Assembly: GCA_038087875.1 (NCBI GenBank)
Contig: CM075995.1
Span: 8,806,001 to 8,870,000, forward strand
Length of the DNA: 64,000 nt
DNA from: Malacoraja senta
Lineage: Eukaryota
Direction: 5' to 3'
A program made the position numbers and the translations under genes. Below the pieces are notes generated by a model. It had not been told where the DNA came from and made no database searches. It saw only the letters and a program-made list of their open reading frames with translations. Below, piece after piece: positions 4,461 to 64,000 of the stretch. Within the stretch, counting starts at the first letter, position 1. Every line of letters starts with the position of its first letter.

Positions 4461-4745
4461 GGGCCTATTTCCACACTGTATCACTCTCTGATCGCTGGTT
4501 AGCAGGGACTCGGTGGGCTGAAGGGCCAGTTTCCACACTGTATCACTCTATGGCTCTCTTAGATCCCTGGTTAGCAGGGACTCGGTGGACTGAAGGGCCT
4601 GTTTCCACACTGTATCTCTCTGATCACTGGTTAGCAGGGACCCAGTGGGCTGAAGGGCCTGTTTCCACACTGTATCTCTCTGATCACTGGTTAGCAGGGA
4701 CTCGTTGGGCCGAAGGGCCTGTTTCACACACTGTATCACTCTATG
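4461..4745 (+). repeat. About 60-bp tandem repeat (4-5 copies) derived from the SINE/LINE 3' tail
   Basis: Unit gggcctgtttccacactgtatctctctgatcactggttagcagggactcggtgggctgaa repeated. Confidence 0.85.
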
Positions 4746-9220: not shown

Positions 9221-9339
9221 CAACATTATGATAATTTAAATGACCATTGCAGCGAACGCATTCTCCCTGTGACCGCGTGGGTTTTCTCCGGGCGCTCCAC
9301 TGTCCCGCCACACTCCAAAGACGTGCAGGTTTGTTGGTT

Positions 9340-9790
9340 GACACAAAATGCTGGAGTAACTCAGCGGGACGGGCAGCATCTCTGGAGGGAAGGAATGGGT
9401 GACGTTTCGGGTCGAGACCTTTCTTCAGATTGATGTCAGGGGAGGGGGGGCGGGATAAAGATACCCATTCCGTCTCTCCAGAGATGCTGCCTGTCCCGCT
9501 GAGTTACTCCAGCATTTTGTGTCTACAAATTGCTAACATTAATCAGCTTAAGACTGGTAGGAGAACTGGGAAGGGGGAGGGGATGGAGAGAGAGGGAAAG
9601 CAAGGGCTATCTGAAGTTAGAGAAGTCAATGTTCATACCGCTGGGGTGTAAACTACCCAAGCGAAATATGAGATGCTGTTCCTCCAATTTGCGCTGGGCC
9701 TCACTCTGACAATGGAGGAGGCCCAGGACAGAAAGGTCAGCTTGGAATGGGAGGGGGAGTTGAAGTTCTGAGCCACCGGGAGATCAGGTA
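9340..9790 (-). mobile_element. Penelope-like element fragment (terminal repeat and GIY-YIG tail), minus strand
   Basis: Reverse complement of the GIY-YIG tail at 9600-9790 and of the hammerhead motif at 9401-9428. Confidence 0.75.
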
Positions 9791-11364: not shown

Positions 11365-12299
11365 TTCTGGTAAACCTCCTCTACACCCTCTCCAAAGCCC
11401 CCGCATCTTTCCTGTAATGAGGGCAACTAGAATGGCAGGCAATACTCTAAACACAGCCTAACCAAAGTCCTACAAAGCTAGCTTCCTGACATAGAGTCTT
11501 CCAGCGTGAAAACAGGCCCTTCGGCCCAACTTGCCCACACCGGCCAACATGCCCCATCTACCCTAGTCCCAGCTTGCCTGCCTTTGGCCCACATCCCTCT
11601 AAACCTGTCCTGTCCATGTACCTGTCTAAATGTTTCTTTAAATAACTCTTATTAAAATGACTCGTAGTCCATGCCCCCTCGCAAAGAAGGCAAGCATACC
11701 ATATACATAAGTCTTCTTCACCAGCCTATCTACTTGCGTTGCCACCTTCAGTGAGCTATGAACCTGGACTCCAAGATCCGTCTGCACTTCAATGCTATTA
11801 AGGGACTTGCCATTAATTACATACTCTCATCTTGCATTCAAGCTCCCACAGTGAAACACTTGCTCGGGTTAAACTCAATCTGCCATTTCTCTGCCCATTT
11901 CCGCAGCTGTTCTATATCTCACTGCATTTTCTGACAGCCTTACTGTCTGCAACCCCTCCAATTTGGGAGTCGTCACCAAACTTACTCACCAACCCGTCCA
12001 TATTGATGTCCAGGGCATTTATGTGTCTATATAAGTAAGTAAGTAAGTTTATTGGCCAAGTATTCACATTCACATACAAGGAATTTGCCTTGGTGCTCCG
12101 CCCACAAGTAACAACATGACATACAGTGACAGTTACGAATGACTCAGAAAACACTAAACATTAATAATAATAAAACATTAATGATAAAACACCATTGATC
12201 AAGCCTGTGAACCAACAAAATATATATCACATACAGCAGTGGTCCCAACGGAACAGATCCCTGCGGAACTCCACTGGTCACAGACCCCCCCCCCAGCCA

Positions 12300-12905
12300 G
12301 AATGTCTACCTATGTGGGACTGCGAGATCGTTTCGCTCAACACCTCCGTTCAGTCCACCTGGACCCACCTGATCTCCCGGTTACCAAACACTCTAATAAC
12401 CCCTCCCATTCCCACACTGACCTTTCTGTCCTAGGCCTCCTCCATTGTCAGAGTGAGGCCCAGCGCAAATTGGAGGAACAGCACCTCATATTTCGCTTGG
12501 GCAGCTTACACCCCAACGGTATGAATTTTGATTTCGCTAACTTCAAGTAACCCTTGCATCTCCTCTCTCTCCGTCCCTCCCCCACCCAAGTCGTAGTACT
12601 AGTTTCAAAGTCGTCTTGTTGAGTCTCATTGTCTGTAACTGGTTTTCACCCTAGCCCACAGCTAACAATGGCCTGTTTCCTTTATCATCGTCACTTTTTT
12701 GCATATCTTTCATTCATTTGTTCTATATCTCTCTACATCACCGTCTATATCTCTCGTTTCCCTCTCCCCCGACTCTCAGTCTGAAGAAATGACTCGACCC
12801 AAAACGTTGCCTATTCCTTCTCTCCAGAGCTGCTGCCTGTCCCGCTGAGTTACTCCAGCTTTTTGTGTCTATCTTCGGTTTAAACCAGCATCTGCAGTTC
12901 CTTCC
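12300..12905 (+). mobile_element. Penelope-like element 3' portion: GIY-YIG endonuclease C-terminus, 3' UTR and terminal repeat
   Basis: LRDRFAQHLRSVHLDPPDLPVTKH...GLLHCQSEAQRKLEEQHLIFRLGSLHPNGMNFDF*, followed about 230 nt later by a degenerate hammerhead motif at 12781. Confidence 0.85.
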
Positions 12906-16425: not shown

Positions 16426-16817
16426 CTGAAGAAGTGTCCCGATCCGAAACGTTACCTATCCATGTTCTCCACAGATGCTGCCTGACCCGATGAGTTACTC
16501 CAGCACTCTGTGAAACATCACCTATCCATGTTCTCCACAGATGCTGCCTGACCCGATGAGTTACTCCAGCACTCTGTGAAACATCACCTATCCATGTTCT
16601 CCACAGATGCTGCCTGACCCGCTGAGTTACTCAGCACTCTGTGAAACGTCACCTATCCATGTTCTCCACAGATGCTGCCTGACCCGCTGAGTTACTCCAG
16701 CACTCTGTGAAACGTCACCTATCCATGTTCTCCACATATGCTGCCTGACCCGCTGAGTTACTCCAGCACTCTGTGAAACGTCACCTATCCATGTTCTCCA
16801 CAGATGCTGCCTGACCG
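16426..16817 (+). repeat. PLE terminal repeat: hammerhead head plus 5-6 tandem 66-bp units
   Basis: Unit gaaacgtcacctatccatgttctccacagatgctgcctgacccgctgagttactccagcactctgt. Confidence 0.9.
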
Positions 16818-18729
16818 GCAACTAAGTTATAGATAATATGCAGACACTCCTTAAGAAATCTGAAACTTGAGATGTAACCTCATTCATTGAAAGAGTAAAG
16901 TTGATGCACATTTATACCTGCAACATTTGTCACTTTTATTCGACTAATGACGACTTTCTACCCCAATTTGTTTTTTACAAGATGTGACCATGTTCACTTA
17001 CTTCATAATTTTGCTGCATCTGCAATTTGCAAACAGTTTGTGATGAAAAATAGGATCATTCGATATTAAAAGTGGGTGTCGGGATAATGACTATATTACA
17101 ATGTTTACGCTTTACGTGGTTTTTACTAAAATGCACTTTCTATACGTGAATCAACAATAATTGTTTTTTGATCTCATAACCAGAAACAGAAGCCATCATA
17201 AAGTGTCGAACATTTCACAAAACATGAAGATGTCCCAACAACAGCACTTTATTTAATAACTTTTTATGCACAGAATTTAAACGTTTCAGTGGCAAATACG
17301 TGTCCATGACAGTAATTGGATTTGATTATTAAAGCTTGTCTAATGCTGTGTTGATTTCTTTTGTGATTGTGATTTTTTTAAACAAAATAAAGGCACTAAA
17401 AATATTATCTCTTAACCGGTGAGTTTTTATGGTCAAAATAAAATATGTTCTACAATTGGTTTGAACTATTTGCATTCTGATATGCAATACTTGAGATAGA
17501 ATTTCTTTAGTCAGAGGGTGGTGAATCTGTGGAATTCATTTCCACATATGGCGGTGGAGGCTATCAGTGGACAATAGACAATAGGTGCAGGAGTAAGCCA
17601 TTCGGCCCTTCGAGCCTGCACCACCATTCAATGTGATCATGGCTGATCACCCACAATCAGTACCCTGTTCCTGCCTTCTCCCCATATCCCCTTGACTCCA
17701 CTATCTTTAAGAGCTCTATCTTACTCTCTCTTGAAAGCATCCAGAGAACCGGCCTCCACCTGCCTTCTGAGGCAGAGAATTGAGGCAGTCATTGGATATT
17801 TTGAAGTCAGAGATAGACAGATTGTTGATTAGTACGGGTGTCAGGGGTGGTGGGGAGAAGGCAGGAGAATGGGGTTGCGAGGAAATGATTGAGCAGCCAT
17901 GATTGAATGGCGGAGAGAGTAGACTAGATGGGTCGAACAGCGTAATTCTGCACCTAGAACTTATGATAGACACAAAAAGCTGGAGTAACTCAACGGGTCA
18001 GAAAGCACCTGGAGAAAAGGAATGGGTGATGTTTCGTGTCGAGACCCTTCTTCAGACAGAGGCTTGAAGAGACCTCGTCTTAGGTCTTCAGACGGAGAGC
18101 TCTCAGTCTGAGGAAGGGTCTCGAGCATTTTGTGTCTATCTTTGGTTTAAACCAGCATCTGCAGTTCCTTATCATAAGATCATAAGTGATAGGAGCAGAA
18201 TTTGGCCAGTCGGCCCATCAAGTCTACTCCGCCATTCAATCATGGCTGATCTATCTCTCCCTCCTAACCCCATTCTCCTGCCTTCTCCCCATAACCTCTG
18301 ACACCTGTACTATTTAATAATTTATCTAAGGTAGACAAAAGTGCTGGAGAAACTCAGCGGGTGCAGCAGCATCTATGGAGCGAAGGAAATAGGCAACGTT
18401 TCGGGCCGAAACCCTTCTTCAGACTGATCTATCTATCTATCTATATCTGCCTTAAAATATATTCAATGACTTGGCCTCCACAGCCATCTGTGGCAAAGAA
18501 TTCCACAGATTCACCACCCTCTGACTAAGGAAATTCCTCCTCATCTCCTTCCGAAATGAACGTCCTTCAATTCTGAGGCTGTGAACTTATGAGTCATGTC
18601 TGCATGATGGACTGGGCTACATCTACAACTCTCTGCAATTTCTTGCGGTCTTGGGCAGAGCTGTTCCCAATCCATGTTGTGCCGGACGCGGGCGGGGAGA
18701 AGGAGGGATGCCCAGGGCGGGTGGGATGA

Positions 18730-26115: not shown

Positions 26116-26730
26116 TTGGCCAGCAAGGTGGTGCAGCGGTAGAGTCGCTGCCTTACAGCACCAGAGACCCGGGTTCGATCCTGACTACGGGTGCTGTCTA
26201 TACGGAGTTTGGACGTTCTCCCCGTGACCTGCGTGGGTTTTCTCTGGGTGTTCCGGTTTCCTCCCACACACCGAAGACGAACAGGTTTGTAGGTTAATTG
26301 GCTTCAGTGAAAAGTTGTCAATTGTCCCAGGTCTCTGGTGCTGTAAGGCAGCAACTCTACTGCTGTGCCACCCACCGACTCTTATGACTCTATTATCGAG
26401 CAATTGAGTTTTACTCCTTTTGATGATACCCCTGTGCACATTTAATTCCCAACAGTAAATTTTACAGTAAAGGGAGCAGCTGAAATCAGACCTCCACTGA
26501 GTTTAAAGCAGTGCAACACAGAACTGGGTGATTTCCGAACAATCAGATTGTTGTGGGTTTGCCCATTTGATGCCTGTTCTAACATTTTGACATTCTGGCA
26601 TTCAATCTGTAAATACATACTATGCTGCTTTGGCAAAGTATTTAAATTATAACTAAAAGGGACATAAAGTGCTGGAGTGATTAGGCAGGTCAGGCAGCAT
26701 CTCTGGAGAACATGGGTAGGCCCTACCAGT

Positions 26731-27050
26731 CTGAAGAAGTGTCCTGACCTGAAACGTCACCTATCCATGTTCTCCACAGATGCTGCCTGAGCCACTGAGT
26801 TACTCCAGCACTCTGTGAAACGTCACCTATCCACGTTCTCCACAGATGCTGCCTGAGCCACTGAGTTACTCCAGCACTCTGTGAAACGTCACCTATCCAC
26901 GTTCTCCACAGATGCTGCCTGAGCCGCAGAGTTACTCCAGCACTCTGTGAAACGTCACCTATCCACGTTCTCCACAGATGCTGCCTCACCCGCTGAGTTA
27001 CTCCAGCACTCTGTCCATTTTTGTAAACCAGCATCTGCACTGCCTTGTCT
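26731..27050 (+). repeat. PLE terminal repeat: head plus 4 tandem 66-bp units
   Basis: GAAAC at 26751, 26817, 26883 and 26949 (period 66). Confidence 0.9.
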
Positions 27051-27091: not shown

Positions 27092-27340
27092 TTGAGTGGG
27101 AGGATTTGGACACAGCCGATGAGATGGAAGATGAAGCAGAAGAAGAAAATGAGGAGAGCAAAGCTGAAGGGCCGAGGGCAGACACCCCGGCTGCTGCCTT
27201 TCCAGTCACAGACTGCTTGTTCTGCTCACACCACTCGCGGACTCTGTTAAGAAATATAGATCACATGACCAAGTCCCACAGTTTCTTTATCCCTGACGTG
27301 GAATATCTAGTGGATCTGCGGGGGCTGATAAAATATCTGG
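27092..27340 (+). CDS. ZNF622: ZNF622 exon 3
   Basis: ccag| (V)EWEDLD...TDCLFCSHHSRTLLRNIDHMTKSHSFFIPDVEYLVDLRGLIKYLG |gtgagt; phase 1 to 1. Confidence 0.95.
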
Positions 27341-27786
27341 GTGAGTACCACAAGTTTCCACGATACTGTAAATTCATCAACCGTTAACAAGGGTGTTGCA
27401 AGACGAGCAAAATTATTTAGAATGTCACAGGACCATAAGATGTAAAAGCAGAATTAAGCCTTGCGGCCCATCAAGTCTGCTCTGCACTTCGATTCAGACT
27501 GATCTTCCTTTCTCTCTCAACCCTTCTCTTCCCCTCGCCCTGTAGCCCTTGACAACCGTGCTAATCAAGGACCTCTGCCTTAAAAATATCCTTTGACTTG
27601 GCCTCCACAGCCATCTGTGGCAGAATTCCACAGATTCAACACCCTCTGGCTAAAGAAATTCCTCCTCGTCTCCATTCTAAAAGTATGTCCCTTTACTATG
27701 ATGTTTAAGAAGGAACTGCAGATGCTGGAAAATCGAAGGTAGACAAAAATGCTGGAGGAACTCAGCGGGTGAGGCGGCATCTATAG

Positions 27787-31451: not shown

Positions 31452-31675
31452 CTGAAGAAGGGTCCCGACCCGAAACATCACCTATCCATGTTTACTCCAC
31501 AGATGTTACTTGATCCGCTGAGTTACTCCAGCACTATGTGAAACGTCATCTATCCATGTTCTCCACAGATGCTGCCTGACCTGCTGAGTTACTCCAGCAC
31601 TCTGTGAAACGTCACCTATCCATGTTCTCCACAGATGCTGCCTGACCCGCTGAGTTACCACAGCACTGTGTCCTT
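31452..31675 (+). repeat. PLE terminal repeat: head plus 3 tandem 66-bp units
   Basis: Same unit, slightly diverged. Confidence 0.85.
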
Positions 31676-36360: not shown

Positions 36361-36646
36361 TCTTACGAACTCAGCGGGTCAGGCAGCATCTCTGGAGAAC
36401 AAGGATAGGTGACGTTTCGGGTCAGGTCTGAAATTGTCATTCTGACCTGAAACGTCACCCATCCTTTTTTTCCAAAAATTCTGCCTGACCCGCTGAGTTA
36501 CTCCAGCACTCTGAAACGTCACCTATCCATGTTCTCCAGAGATGTTGCCTGACCCATTGAGTTACTCCAGCGCTGTGTGTCTATCTTTCGTATTAAAATA
36601 TTAATTTGCCACTGGTTTAACTTTTTTCCACTCTATTGAATATCAG

Positions 36647-45288: not shown

Positions 45289-48200
45289 GCCCATTTCCTT
45301 CGCTCCATCGATGCCGCCTTCACCCGCTGAGTTTCTCCAGCATTTTTTTGCTGTTGTCCACCTTCTCCAGATCTTCGCTTTCAAGTTCAAGTTACATTTA
45401 TTGTCACGTACACCAATTGGTGCAGTGAAATCTGAAGGATGCACAGAGTCTCTTGCCCAGAGTAGGGGAATCGAGGACCAGAGGACATAGGTTTAAGGTG
45501 AAGGGGAGAAGATTTAATAGGAATGTGAGGGGTAACCTTTTTCACACAAAGGGTGGTGGGTGTATGGAACGAGCTGCCAGACGACGTAGTTGAGGCTGGG
45601 ACTATCCCAAAGTTTAAGAAGCAGCTACAAGGATAGGACAGGTTTAGATGGACATGGGCCAAACGCGGGCAGGCGGGACTAGTGTAGCTGGGACATGTTG
45701 GCCGGTGTAGGCAAATTGGGCCGAAGGGCATGTTTCCACACTGTATTGACTCTTTGACTATGAAGAAGAAACCACAAAAAAACCCGGTTTGAAAGCAAGC
45801 CCCTTCCACGAAACAGTTCAAACATCGAGCATGCCGCACCCTTTCATAAAACGGGGCCAAAAAAACACCGGGCAGAAAGCACGCCCCATTCATGAAAATG
45901 TACCCTAACATTAAACGGAACAAACAACGGCCTGGAAGTACGTCCTATTCATGAAACTGCAACAATAAAAACGGACTGTAAGCGCGGCTCATTTATAAAA
46001 CTGCAAAAAGAATGGGCTGAAAGCACTTCATTCATAAAAAATGTGCAAAATAGGGCCGAAAGCAAGTCCCATTCATAAAACTGTGCACCGACGGGATCTA
46101 TCCCGTGTTTCATTTGCAATATAAAGCCGTGCAACAGTTATTTGTAATTCATTGCCATCTGCAACATCACATACTGACTTTCTTGATGACACAAGGAACT
46201 GCAGATGCTGGAAACAAGTTTTTGATAGTGGATGCAATATTAAATAGCCGCTGCCCAGGAAACACACACTGCACTTTCATGCCTTGAATAGTGGAAAATA
46301 TTATTTTAGTTCTGATTCTATGACGTTTTTTAAAAATAGAATTAAAACGCGTGTTATTGTTTGCGGACTGAACATACCTCCATCCTGGCATGGGAGGAAT
46401 TATTATTATTTTAGCTGTTTTATGACGCTCTTGAAAAATAAAAATAAAACAAGTGTAGTTTTATCCGGTCAGAATATACCTCTATCAGGGCGTGGTGGAA
46501 AATATTGTTATTTTAGCAAAACACAAAGTGCTGGAATAACTCAGCGAACCAGGCAGCATCTGTGGAGGGAATGGACAGGCGACGTTTCGGGTCCGCACCC
46601 CTCTTAGGACTAATTTTATTTTGTTGCTCAAGTTTCCATCATGTAGAGTTTCAGATCAAACTGTAGCGTCTCTTTCCCAATTAGGCTTCTGGGACCCTTT
46701 TTCAGACCCGAATGATCGCCTGTTCATTCCCGCCACATAGGCTGCCTGACCCGCTGAGTTCCTCCAACACTTTGTGCCTCGCTCAAGATTCCCAGCATCT
46801 CTTGTGTCTCCGAGTGATTGATTTTAGTTCCAACCTGTTCTGGCGCCTTGCAAGCCGACCCGAGAGTTTGATTTCAGCACCATGGTCAGCGCCGCTCCCT
46901 CTCGGAGGCTGGGGCTTTGAAAGGAGCACAGCACACAGCGAGCTCTGCATTCGCACCGGCGAATACGTTTACACAGAGTTGGGGTTCTTTATTTGCCTTT
47001 TTCACAATTCCACAAGGAATTCCTAGTCGAATCATCAAACTATTACTGCGTTTATTCGGAAAGTATTCCAACAGATTCTGACAATCAGAGATTCTGACAA
47101 GCAAAGTGCTGGAGTAACTCAGCGGGTCAGGCAGCATCTCTGGCGAACAAAGGGCCTGTTTTCCTGCTGTATGACTATGACTCTCTATTTATGGTCATAA
47201 CGTAAACCATGTAAATGAATTTTTGGATATATTAAGAACCGAGTCAGCAGGACCCAACGCACTTAATTCAATAAATGATTATTGAATATTTAAAGGACTG
47301 AATAATTGTGAAATGGGGTTGTTTAACAAACACGGTGGCGCACTCTTGCACTAGAGACCCGGATTCGATCTTTATCTCGGGTGCTGTCTGTATGTGCAGT
47401 TTGCACGTTCTCCCTGTGACTCAGTATGTTTCCTAGAGGTGCTCTGGTGCCCTCCCATATCCCAAAGCCATGTGGGCTTGTAGGTTAATTAGATGAGAAA
47501 GTGGGATAACAGAGAGCTAATGTGAATGGATGATCGATGGTTGGCATGTAGTCGGTGGGCCGAAGGGACTGTTTCTATGCTGTATCTGAAAACAGACAAA
47601 AACAACTTTCATGAGGAATATTTTCATGTCAGTCGTGCTTGTATTCTTGCAATTCTAGAAATGCTCCACAGCAAGAACCTCATGTGTGGGATTCCGTCAA
47701 GTTTGCCAGTGACTCTATGAGTCAACTTCAAATAATGCAGTTGATAGTTTACTTTAGTTGGTTGAGTTTAATTTATTGTCACGTGTACCGAGGAACTGTG
47801 AAAAGCTTTTGTTGCGTAGTTAACCAGTCGGCGGAAAGACTTGTCAGCAGGGAAGTGTATGAATGACTACATTTACAGAGACATGTTGAATGCATATTGA
47901 ATGCATACAGAATGGACATGTATGAAACAGAAAGTTTGCCCTCTCCAGATGTTCTGGGTAAGTTATTTGCGAAGCAAGGAAGTTGCCTGATTTATAAAGA
48001 ATACCCTGCAGTCATGATTGTTCTGCTTAAGGATGTTATTTGTTACTTTTCCAACATACTTTTTCCATGGCTGATTATTTTGGAATCTTTCACGTACACA
48101 ATCCCATGATAAGAGAATGGGAACATTGTTGAAATTTAACCAGTGCCAGCAAGGCACAAATTGATAGAAGATATGTGTCATAGTCATACAGTGTGGAAAC

Positions 48201-49579
48201 AGGCCCTTCGGCCCAAACCTGCCCACACCGACCGACCAATCCCATCTACACTAGTCCCACCTGCCTGTGTTTGGCCCGTATCCCTCTAAATCTGTCCTAT
48301 CCATGTACCTGTCTAGATGTTTCTTAAACATTACGATAGTACCTGCTGATTTTTTATCCTCTTTTTTTTTGGTAATATTTACATCTCTTGATGTATTCAA
48401 GAGAGAGTTCGATATAGCTCTGAGGGCTAACGGAATCAGGGGATATGGGAAGAAAGCAGGATCACTGTACTGATTCTGGATGTTCAGCCTTGATCATATT
48501 GAATGGCGGTGCTGGCTCGAAGGGCCGAATTGGCCTACACCTGCGCCTATTTTCTATGTTTCTAACACTTGGTTGAGATCAGAAATTCATCATGTAACAG
48601 AACACAGGTGGCTAACTGGAAAATGATTCCCTTGCCTATTATTAAGCTATCATAATTAAGTGAACTCAACCTAGCTTTCTAGAAGTTTTATGCTAGCTCT
48701 CTTCTGACATTTTTTCCCATCACTTACAATCAGTCGGAAAAAGGATCGACCCGAAACCACCTATCCATGTTCTCCAGAGATGCTGCCCGACCCTCTGAGT
48801 TACTCCAGCACTCTGTGAAACGTCACCAATCCATGTTCTCCACAGGTGCTGCCTGACCCGCTGAGTTACTCCCGCACTTTGTGTCTATCTTTGGTTGAGG
48901 GGAGACCTGATAGAAGTGTATAAAACTATGAGAGACAAACAAAGTAGACAATCTGAAGAACCATTTTCCCAGGGTGGAAATGTAAAAATGTAGAGGGCTT
49001 AGTAGAGGGACAAAGTTTCAAAGAAATGTGCGATGCAGATTATTAATACAGAGGGTGGTAGATGCCTGGAACACGCTGCCAGGTGTGGTGGTGAAGACAG
49101 ATATGATGGCAGCGGATCATGAGAAGATATGCAGGAAAAGGAGATGATAAGGATAACGTGCCTTCGGAAGAGATTAATTTAACCTGGTTTAGTTTAATTT
49201 AGAGATATCGCAATGAAACAGGCCCTTTGGCTCACCGAGTCCACGCCGACCATCCATCACCCGTACACTAGTTCTACGTTATCCCACTTTCCTATCCTAC
49301 ACACTGGGGGCAATTTAAAGGGGCCAATTAACCTACAAACGGCACGTCTTTGGAATGTGGGAGGAAACCCGGAAACCCGGAGAAAACCCACAGGGCGAAC
49401 GCACAAACTCCGCACACACACACACAGCACTCAAGGTCAGGATCGAACGCAATTCTCTCTCCCTGTAAGGCAGCAATTCTACCGCTGCGCCACTGTGCAC
49501 TATCTATACTGGCTGATGTCAACCATGTTGTCATTTGTTTCACCTTGAATGAACCTTGTTTTCCTTTTGTTGCTCCCAG

Positions 49580-54489: not shown

Positions 54490-54650
54490 CTGAAGAAGGG
54501 TCCCAACCTGAAACGTCACCTATCCATGTTCTCCACAGATGCTGCCTGACCCGCTAAGTTACTCCAACACTCTGTGAAACGTCACCTATCCATGTTCTCC
54601 ACAGATGCTGCCTGACCCGCTGAGTTCCTCCAGCACTCTGTGAAACGTCA
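54490..54650 (+). repeat. PLE terminal repeat: head plus 2 tandem 66-bp units, inserted in a CR1 fragment
   Basis: ctgaagaagggtcccaacctgaaacgtc followed by two units. Confidence 0.85.
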
Positions 54651-56714: not shown

Positions 56715-57150
56715 AGGAACTGCAGATGTTGGAATCTTGGGTAGAACACAGAGTGCTGGAGTAACTCAGCAGGTCAGGCAGCATCTGTGGAGAACATGGA
56801 TAGGTGACGTTTCACAGAGTGCTGGAGTAACTCAGCGGGTCAGGCAGCATCTGTGGAGAACATGGATAGGTGACGTTTCACAGAGTGCTGGAGTAACTCA
56901 GCGGGTCAGGCAGCATCTGTGGAGAACATGGATAGGTGACGTTTCACAGAGTGCTGGAGTAACTCAGCGGGTCAGGCAGCATCTGTGGAGAACATGGATA
57001 GGTGACGTTTCACAGAGTGCTGGAGTAACTCAGCGGGTCAGGCAGCATCTGTGGTGAACATGCTAGAGTACCGACCTGAAACATCACCTATCCATAACCT
57101 CCAGATCTGCTGCCTAACCCACTAATTTACTCCAGCATTTTGTGTTCTAT
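56715..57150 (-). repeat. 66-bp PLE tandem array (about 4.7 units) with an inverted arm
   Basis: Near-perfect units 56748-57056 in antisense, then a sense fragment at 57073-57148. Confidence 0.9.
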
Positions 57151-60654: not shown

Positions 60655-60997
60655 ACAAGGAACTACAGATGCTGGTTTATAAAAATGGCACAAAATGCTG
60701 GAGTAACTCAGCGGGTCAGGCAGCATCTGTGGAGAACATGGATAGGTGACGTTTCACAGAGTGCTGGAGTAACTCAGCGGGTCAGGCAGCATCTGTGGAG
60801 AACATGGATAGGTGACGTTTCACAGAGTGCTGGAGTAACTCAGCGGGTCAGGCAGCATCTGTGGAGAACATGGATAGGTGACGTTTCGGGTCCGCATCCT
60901 TCTTCGGACTCTGCAGAGTCTAAAACTATCCCTGAAATGATCCATGTTCTCCAGAGATGCTGCCTGACCCGCTGAGTTAGTCCAGCACTTTGTGTCA
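60655..60997 (-). repeat. 66-bp PLE tandem array (3 units plus head) with an inverted arm
   Basis: Antisense units ending gacgtttcgggtccgcatccttcttcggac; sense arm at 60940-60997. Confidence 0.9.
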
Positions 60998-62321: not shown

Positions 62322-62810
62322 GTAGACAAAAATGCTGGAGTAACTCAGCGGGTCAGGCAGCATCGGTGGAGAACATGGATAGGTGACGTTTCACAGAGTG
62401 CTGGAGTAACTCAGCGGGTCAGGCAGCATCTGTGGAGAACATGGATAGGTGACGTTTCACAGAGTGCTGGAGTAACTCAGCGGGTCAGGCAGCATCTGTG
62501 GAGAACATGGATAGGTGACGTTTCACAGAGTGCTGGAGTAACTCAGCGGGTCAGGCAGCATCTGTGGAGAACATGGATAGGTGATGTTTCACAGAGTGCT
62601 GGAGTAACTCAGCGGGTCAGGCAGCACCTGTGGAGAACATGGATAGGTGACGTTTCACAGAGTGCTGGAGTAACTCAGCGGGTCAGGCAGCATCTGTGGA
62701 GAACATGGATAGGTGACGTTTCACAGAGTGCTGGAGTAACTCAGCGGGTCAGGCAGCATCTGTGGAGAACATGGATAGGTGACGTCTCGGATCGAGACCC
62801 TTCCACTGAC
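62322..62810 (-). repeat. 66-bp PLE tandem array (7 units plus degenerate head)
   Basis: Seven near-identical antisense units ending about 28 nt before MARCHF11 exon 4. Confidence 0.92.
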
Positions 62811-63504: not shown

Positions 63505-64000
63505 CAAGGAAGTGCAGATTCAGCTTTATACCAAAGACAGAGTGCTGGAGTAACTCAGCGGGTCAGGCAGCATCTGTGGAGAACATGGATAGGTGACATT
63601 TCACAGAGTGCTGGAGTAACTCAGAGGGTCAGGCAGCATCTGTGGAGAACATGGATAGGTGACGTTTCACAGAGTGCTGGAGTAACTCAGGGGGTCAGGC
63701 AGCATCTGTGGAGAACATGGATAGGTGACGTTTCACAGAGTGCTGGAGTAACTCAGGAGGTCAGGCAGCTTCTCTGGAGAAAGTGGATGGATGACATTTC
63801 GCGTCGGGACAGTCTTCAGTCTGAAGCATCTTCATTTTTCAGTCTGAAGAAGGGTCCCGAACAGAAACGTCACCTATCCATGTTCTCCACAGATGCTGCC
63901 TGACCCGCTGAGTTACTCCAGCACTCTGTGAAACGTCACCTATCCATGTTCTCCACAGATGCTGCCTGACCCGCTGAGTTACTCCAGCACTCTGTGAAAC
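63505..64000. repeat. Head-to-head 66-bp PLE arrays (4 antisense units, then head at 63844 and at least 2 sense units; truncated by the window end)
   Basis: Direct reading. Confidence 0.9.

What the first reader, a model, noticed from the sequence alone, without database searches (positions are those of the whole stretch)
26731..27050. 'One enzyme, many substrates' architecture: a single hammerhead core followed by 66-bp units repeating only the cleavage-site half
Seen: most arrays (16426, 26731, 31452, 54490, 63844; antisense at 60690, 62322, 63538) begin with one CTGAAGA-stem II head. The head is followed by 2-7 units that restart at GAAACGTC through the same junction (…cactctgt|gaaacgtc…) and lack CTGANGA. 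The shared junction at many loci implies the array belongs to the mobilised template rather than arising locally each time. Inference: the head's ACGU could pair with the ACGU of any downstream unit to form helix III in cis, with the unit as its loop. That would remove the need for a second full ribozyme and could give cleavage products in 66-nt steps, as in a retrozyme-like non-autonomous retroelement. I do not know of a description of this arrangement, but cannot search the literature.
Basis: partly seen in the sequence, partly recalled or inferred. Interest (0 to 1): 0.82.

Follow-up and report, generated by a model that had tools for sequence, protein, structure and literature searches.

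The report
Minisatellite converting old Penelope retroelement remnants
A young, nearly uniform 66-base repeat sits as short arrays inside thousands of older, decayed end-repeats of a Penelope-type retroelement, mostly near chromosome ends; it likely spreads by being copied into those old copies during DNA repair, and the ribozyme-like head is probably just the old host rather than an enzyme serving the units.

Summary
The arrays are real: 15,675 exact unit-unit junctions genome-wide. The 66-bp unit is the 3' half of the pLTR of a GIY-YIG Penelope-like element. Head and units are not one mobilised ribozyme. Inner units differ 0.95% from a reference unit (n=386), heads 10.6% (n=85), from several older subfamilies. 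Only 5 of 119 heads keep core plus stem II, and helix I is 2 bp at most. Marker sites switch old to young in the first unit and young to old in the last, with host sites lost in 28 of 34 typed arrays; head and tail types match (p=0.006; two other tests not significant). A 110-bp passenger flanked by units recurs 1,172 times behind unlike heads; one private variant is confined to 0.9 Mb. Best reading: existing arrays act as donors that convert solo remnants near chromosome ends, likely by break repair (0.55); Penelope cDNA homing is the main rival (0.3). Closest known case: Rsp-like invading 1.688 clusters in Drosophila.

The parts
26668..26720 (-). Inverted, 5'-truncated second copy of the pLTR 3' half (old host; 83% to the unit)
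   Evidence: unit positions 10-62 on minus strand; forms a long hairpin with unit 1 in the predicted fold
26731..26750 (+). Decayed minimal-hammerhead head (CTGAAGA plus broken stem II) of the old host pLTR copy
26751..27014 (+). Four 66-bp units; neighbouring units share private variants
27015..27048 (+). Old host tail (30-40 bp extension typical of Penelope-like insertions)
   Evidence: tail described in PMC8557442
27109..27342 (+). Host-gene exon with zf-C2H2_2 domain; the array likely lies in the intron before it, in sense
   Evidence: Pfam PF12756 E 8.5e-13; intron position inferred from the sequence
16426..16829 (+). Array of about 5.7 units, decayed head, cut at the 3' end
31452..31671 (+). 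Array of 3 units; best-preserved head in the window
36449..36578 (+). Two-unit array with a 64-bp period and host-type units (different junction)
48753..48882 (+). Two-unit array, head without CTGANGA
54490..54650 (+). Two units plus 9 nt, then host tail resuming out of register
56748..57143 (-). Array of 4.8 units with no head, joined to an old inverted arm
60690..60993 (-). Array of 3 units, mutated head, inverted arm; last unit ends in host-type letters
62327..62810 (-). Array of 7 units, head lacking both core boxes; last unit ends in host-type letters
63537..64000 (.). Hairpin element with arrays in both arms (4 units minus strand; 4 units plus 8 nt plus strand, running into L031), each with its own differently decayed head
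12188..12905 (+). Parent element for comparison: endonuclease C-terminus remnant, 3' UTR, then a solo pLTR copy with head, one old-type unit and tail
   Evidence: this remnant itself had no Pfam hit, its relative in L091 hits GIY-YIG

Best explanation
The 66-bp unit is the 3' half of a Penelope-like element's terminal repeat, and short arrays of one young version of it sit inside older solo copies of that repeat, into which they were likely copied from other arrays during repair of DNA breaks. Shown: each typed array is old head, switch to young sequence, young units, switch back to old tail, with the host stretch between the switches replaced. Inferred: a break near unit positions 53-66 of a solo leaves a left end with up to 60 bp of homology that invades a physically near array, copies several units (the donor has many registers, so the count varies, and any passenger between units is carried) and rejoins the right end on short homology. 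Each product becomes a new donor, so solos turn into arrays with a gain bias. The hammerhead head is a bystander.
For: Age gap: inner units 0.95% non-CpG divergence (386 units, 195 identical), heads 10.6% in 85 arrays and 7.2% in 305 solos; 1 of 289 solos is young-type at all 7 marker sites. Share with a long head equal in arrays and solos, 53/92 and 224/384. In arrays with an A/B-type head, first units read old-then-young and last units young-then-old; 28 of 34 lose two or more host sites, 3 of 34 lose none. Head letter -7 predicts tail type across the array: 10:2 against 4:12, p=0.006, 28 of 155 arrays typable. Hosts most like the unit are favoured: C-type heads 48/83 arrays against 44/255 solos, p=6e-12. 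Passenger cargo at 1,172 places behind unlike heads with different unit numbers on both sides (27 distinct loci of 30). Locality: one spacer variant has 26 copies, 11 of the 13 on large contigs within C19 8.56-9.48 Mb; the C1 tip has 0 passenger arrays of 27. Confinement: 0 arrays and 72 solos in 20 interior 10-kb samples against 128 arrays and 549 solos in array-rich regions. 3'-cut arrays 26/154 against 33/619 solos, the reverse of the polarity expected of target-primed reverse transcription.
Against: Young solo copies are also biased to the same regions (78/328 against 3/60 interior), so confinement to ends does not separate DNA repair from recent Penelope activity. The young-to-old switch lies after position 52 in about 96% of last units, near the element's natural 3' ends, which a site-specific nick with cDNA synthesis also predicts. 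Two other variants (219 and 43 copies) are spread over many chromosome ends, so spread is not only local. At least 4 of the 26 3' cuts are interruptions by other insertions (read by eye). Two head-tail concordance tests were not significant (p=0.21; p=0.12), the significant one was designed afterwards, and left-end length classes differ between arrays and solos over six bins (p=0.005). No orthologous single-unit allele was seen. Array-rich regions were chosen because they held matches.
Confidence: 0.55

Rival explanations
1. Penelope-driven homing: the element's GIY-YIG endonuclease nicks old pLTR copies near positions 53-66, and its reverse transcriptase, which starts internally on RNA, copies array-bearing transcripts (for example introns); the cDNA anneals to the homologous left flank. 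Same product, RNA template.
For: 3' switch concentrated after position 52, 5' switch broad; a young subfamily exists (type A, nearest neighbour 2.6%) and shares the end bias; an anole Penelope-like protein starts reverse transcription internally, cuts AT-rich DNA including its own pLTR and does not need hammerhead cleavage (PMC11167929); old copies carry ATT at positions 60-62 where the young unit has ACT.
Against: Arrays almost always retain an old host on both sides whereas ordinary copies insert at new sites; no clear case of young cargo at a virgin site among 33 arrays with an inverted arm; excess 3' cuts; a variant confined to 0.9 Mb; longest open frame among the 150 best endonuclease matches is 374 aa (not a search for intact elements).
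Confidence: 0.3
2. One reading: head plus units is a retrozyme-like template; the head cleaves each unit in cis, giving 66-nt steps or circles that are reverse transcribed.
For: ACGU is palindromic and a 4-bp helix III between head and any unit can be drawn; minimal Penelope hammerheads work as dimers with low activity and may need protein help (PMC4209133; PMC11167929).
Against: Heads old and heterogeneous, units young; intact heads 5/119; helix I 2 bp; predicted cost 19-36 kcal/mol; the novel junction lies 8 nt before the GUC cleavage site, so ligation of cleaved ends did not create it; passenger-bearing arrays with variable unit numbers cannot come from a 66-nt circle.
Confidence: 0.05
3. 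Integration of extrachromosomal DNA circles made of units (or units plus passenger) into solos by homologous crossover.
For: Higher-order tandems of passenger plus units exist (L088, C19); proposed for Rsp-like (PMC7403614).
Against: A single crossover keeps every host marker once; that fits 3 of 34 typed arrays, and 28 lose two or more. A circle used as a repair template is not excluded and would merge with the best explanation.
Confidence: 0.06
4. Independent local slippage, telomerase-like re-priming on each copy's own template, or an assembly artefact.
For: 33 of 149 non-CpG variants are shared by two or more units of one array, so some duplication inside arrays occurs; the 36449 array has another junction and host-type units.
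Against: Local duplication would give host-type inner units; they are of one young type. An assembler would not spare interior solos (0/72); inner units show CpG decay (3.8% against 0.95%); unit-end-to-unit-start joints appear in independent contigs of runs X1, X2 and X3 (table 5c).
Confidence: 0.04

Closest known systems
Penelope-like element pLTR remnants with minimal type I hammerheads (PMC4209133, parts 1-2 of 4 read; PMC8557442, passages; PMC11167929, parts 1-2 of 4; PMC6765202, passages)
   Same: GIY-YIG C-terminus, 3' UTR, CTGANGA-stem II-GAAACGTC with palindromic helix III, heavy 5' truncation, inverted truncated partner, optional tail; the review notes a tendency to insert into or beside existing copies.
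   Different: Those papers describe tandems of whole pLTR-ORF copies; here a sub-pLTR 66-bp unit of one young type is arrayed inside old copies of other subfamilies. Helix I is 2 bp, not 4-5.
Rsp-like satellite invading 1.688 clusters on the Drosophila simulans/mauritiana X (PMC7403614, passages read)
   Same: Young uniform repeat inserted into older abundant repeats, shared junctions at many loci, one variable end, higher-order units moving together, interlocus conversion or circles proposed.
   Different: There the two repeats are unrelated and joined by microhomology at tens of loci; here the invader derives from its target, uses about 60 bp of homology, targets dispersed retroelement remnants, and numbers thousands of loci with marker-mapped conversion tracts.
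Non-LTR retrozymes (PMC7229834, passages; bioRxiv 10.64898/2026.07.22.740005, parts 1-3 of 5)
   Same: Non-coding tandem repeats related to Penelope pLTRs; multimers enriched at chromosome termini.
   Different: Defined by a complete hammerhead in each unit; these units lack CTGANGA and stem II, so that preprint's pipeline would not count them.
Gene conversion of old Alu copies by young ones, and gain-biased conversion at human subtelomeric minisatellites (recalled, not read; searches gave nothing on point)
   Same: Young sequence replacing part of an old dispersed repeat; repeat gain at chromosome ends.
   Different: As recalled, the first is sporadic and adds no array, the second is between alleles of one locus.

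Membership tests
Penelope-like element pLTR remnant (host copy) | C-terminal GIY-YIG endonuclease upstream of the repeat, same strand | tested here: met
   PF01541 E 4.6e-5 on L091:753-1106; C-terminal motifs in sense upstream of 32/371 solos and 5/117 arrays
Penelope-like element pLTR remnant (host copy) | 5' truncation, inverted truncated partner, optional 30-40 bp tail | tested here: met
   left ends variable, right ends in two groups near unit positions 68-81 and 100-112; inverted arm at 164/383 solos and 33/119 arrays
Penelope-like element pLTR remnant (host copy) | Telomerase-like reverse transcriptase in one ORF with the endonuclease; clade assignment | not tested
   no full-length copy was sought; one search lists only endonuclease matches
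Minimal type I hammerhead | CUGANGA and GAAA boxes with palindromic helix III | tested here: inconclusive
   present at 26731 and in 16/119 array heads, 66/383 solos
Minimal type I hammerhead | Stem II with G10.1-C11.1 and helix I of 4-5 bp | tested here: not met
   26731 stem II broken; 5/119 heads pass stem II, with helix I of 0-2 contiguous pairs; 28 of 37 passing solos also have 2
Minimal type I hammerhead | Self-cleavage as dimer | not testable with these tools
   needs in vitro assay
Non-LTR retrozyme | Complete hammerhead in every tandem unit | tested here: not met
   units lack CTGANGA and stem II
Non-LTR retrozyme | Monomeric linear and circular RNAs | not testable with these tools
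   no RNA run held more than 0.05 of the words; no RNA run was laid
Satellite invasion of older repeats (Rsp-like/1.688 type) | Young repeat placed inside pre-existing older repeats with shared junctions; higher-order units move | tested here: met
Satellite invasion of older repeats (Rsp-like/1.688 type) | Pre-insertion state seen at orthologous loci; template is contacting DNA or circles | tested here: inconclusive
   host element present at the orthologous site in X2-X4 but no contig spans the array; template not testable here

The most novel reading that the evidence does not exclude
A natural homing drive inside a vertebrate repeat family: the Penelope GIY-YIG endonuclease, a relative of intron homing nucleases, cuts old pLTR remnants near positions 53-66, where they read ATTTT; the young unit reads ACTCT and would escape cutting, so arrays overwrite solos and carry passengers (the 110-bp spacer reached 1,172 places) without encoding any protein or ribozyme.
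Probability: 0.15. Interest if true: 0.8.

Novelty: new variant of a known kind. Interest (0 to 1): 0.47.

Why it matters
It shows, with marker sites, that thousands of dispersed retroelement remnants can be overwritten by a derived minisatellite. That makes old copies look partly young, lets non-coding passengers spread to over a thousand loci, and offers a large natural data set of ectopic conversion tracts near chromosome ends. It also warns that head-plus-units layouts need not be functional ribozyme architectures. Whether the engine is host break repair or the Penelope enzyme is testable, and bears on the little-known Penelope integration mechanism.

Tried and rejected
Rfam scan: no hammerhead family; the MIR7533 hit at 9334 (64.7 bits against a cut-off of 230) is a hairpin of this repeat family. 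First window scan missed plus-strand copies and was replaced. A genome search for very long arrays could not be run, so no long source array was located. Nearest-neighbour head-tail test p=0.21 with 25 arrays; first-unit-type against tail-type p=0.12. Endonuclease pairwise identity is invalid (strand error in my script) and is not used. The 'remainder' flag (14 of 26) is too loose, since other solos match; only cases read by eye are counted. The 31-mer budget cannot show from word shares that relatives hold junctions. Read laying did not resolve solo against array at the orthologous site; RNA rows at 0.05 share are no evidence. PMC5785218 (dimer-cleaving Penelope hammerheads) is not held; known only through the review passage. 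Searches finding no description of this arrangement: (searches returned 0 papers; the others seen as listings apart from the papers named); Repbase and supplements were not seen, so the repeat may be catalogued there. Earlier-findings look-ups were empty. Rejected: 66-nt RNA circle, telomerase-like re-priming, single-crossover circle integration, independent slippage, assembly artefact (see rivals).

Full report
Observation. The window holds 39 clusters of one repeat family. At the finding, four 66-bp units (26751-27014) follow CTGAAGA at 26731, with an inverted arm at 26668-26720 and a tail after 27014. The exact junction occurs 15,675 times in G000; at about 3.5 junctions per array (326 in 92) that is roughly 4,500-6,000 loci (my estimate). 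The claim that most arrays start with a working head fails: six of 10 parsed window arrays have CTGANGA, 13 of 71 in the first sample have both boxes, and 5 of 119 also have a sound stem II, against 37 of 383 solos.

Identity of the repeat. Endonuclease C-terminal motifs lie in sense about 190-340 bp upstream of 32 of 371 solos and 5 of 117 arrays; in L091 the frame hits Pfam GIY-YIG and is followed by a 3' UTR, an old head and an array. Variable 5' ends, two groups of 3' ends about 30 bp apart and inverted partners match the described structure of Penelope-like insertions (PMC8557442 passages), and the head matches their minimal hammerheads (PMC4209133). The unit is therefore the part of the pLTR from GAAAC to just before the shorter natural 3' end. 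The reverse transcriptase and clade were not tested.

Two ages in one locus. I parsed 155 array loci and 621 solos from about 1.3 Mb plus 27 passenger-centred loci (three near-duplicates dropped). Inner units differ from a window unit by 0.95% at non-CpG sites (386 units, 195 identical); heads differ from the family's common letters by 10.6% in arrays and 7.2% in solos. One of 289 solos is young-type at all seven marker sites. Long heads are equally common in arrays and solos (53/92, 224/384), though the six length classes differ overall (p=0.005). In 35 arrays with an A/B-type head the first unit reads old then young and the last unit young then old; of 34 with a complete last unit, 28 have lost two or more host sites and 3 none. 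The head letter at -7 predicts the tail type on the far side of the array (p=0.006, 28 typable); two other designs of this test were not significant. Hosts closest to the unit are over-represented (48/83 against 44/255). In runs of three other organisms whose flanks differ by about 4-9%, contigs run into the inverted arm (X2, X3) and the last unit or tail (X2-X4), so the host element is old; none spans the array.

A passenger shows copying between loci. A piece of about 110 bp from an old hairpin copy, flanked by units with fixed junctions, occurs 1,172 times, behind heads of different subfamilies, with different unit numbers on both sides and sometimes as higher-order tandems. So arrays come from shared donors, products become donors, and unit number changes on copying or afterwards (33 of 149 variants shared within an array).

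Geography. Listed matches cluster near contig ends and on small contigs, with internal clusters at C2 86.6-91 Mb and C1 219-227 Mb. Twenty interior samples held 72 solos and no array; the array-rich regions, chosen for having matches, hold 128 arrays and 549 solos. One spacer variant is local (11 of 13 placed copies within 0.9 Mb of C19, 13 more on small contigs); the C1 tip has no passenger in 27 arrays (p=0.003 against an assumed 20%); two other variants reach many ends. Young solos share the end bias.

Mechanism. Shown: replacement of a host stretch by young multi-unit cargo, with a broad 5' switch and a 3' switch after position 52 in about 96% of last units. Inferred: a break near positions 53-66, invasion of a near array by the long-homology left end, copying of several units, and capture of the short right end, which sometimes fails (3' cuts 26/154 against 33/619; at least four are interruptions by other insertions). 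The rival is nicking and cDNA synthesis by the Penelope protein, which in an anole element starts internally, cuts AT-rich DNA including its own pLTR, and does not need hammerhead cleavage (PMC11167929). My data do not separate these cleanly (0.55 against 0.30). Single-crossover circle integration, slippage, re-priming and assembly error fit poorly.

The ribozyme idea. Helix III ACGU/ACGU can be drawn, but helix I has two pairs, stem II is broken at 26731, and the constrained fold is 19-25 kcal/mol above the predicted minimum, 36 with the inverted arm. The new junction is 8 nt before the cleavage site, so it is not a ligation scar. Cleavage was not assayed.

Known relatives and novelty. Not a retrozyme by the definition of a hammerhead in each unit. 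It works like Rsp-like invading 1.688 clusters (PMC7403614 passages) but uses extended homology to its own parent family, at thousands of dispersed sites. My searches found no description; Repbase, supplements and most subscription papers were not seen. Verdict: new variant of a known kind, interest 0.47; 0.8 if the Penelope nuclease drives it as a homing system (probability 0.15).

Noticed in passing
L088 (G000:C2 about 86,997,000) and C19 near 8,720,000; also C4 84,678,757-84,680,937: Higher-order tandems of passenger plus a variable number of units; possible donor-rich loci.
   Followed up: partly
G000:C2 86.6-91 Mb and C1 219-227 Mb: Internal clusters of arrays with a sharp edge at C2 86.6 Mb; may mark joined chromosome ends (fusion or scaffolding).
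   Followed up: no
window 36447-36578: Two-unit array with a 64-bp period and host-type units, perhaps an independent local duplication on a 3-nt microhomology.
   Followed up: no
window 9334-9529: Weak Rfam MIR7533 match is an inverted pair of this Penelope-like repeat; that miRNA family may derive from such hairpins.
   Followed up: no
all solos with intact core: Helix I has only 2 contiguous pairs in 28 of 37 otherwise intact heads, so the whole family's hammerhead departs from the published minimal form.
   Followed up: partly
solo subfamily A: The youngest solo subfamily is enriched in the same end regions and is rarely a host for arrays (2 of 35 typed arrays against 79 of 202 solos).
   Followed up: partly
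window 27109-27342: Exon with a zf-C2H2_2 domain, ZNF622-like by recall.
   Followed up: partly
window 4555-4742 and 46299-46517: Unrelated tandem repeats of 60 bp (3.1 copies) and 102 bp (2.1 copies).
   Followed up: no
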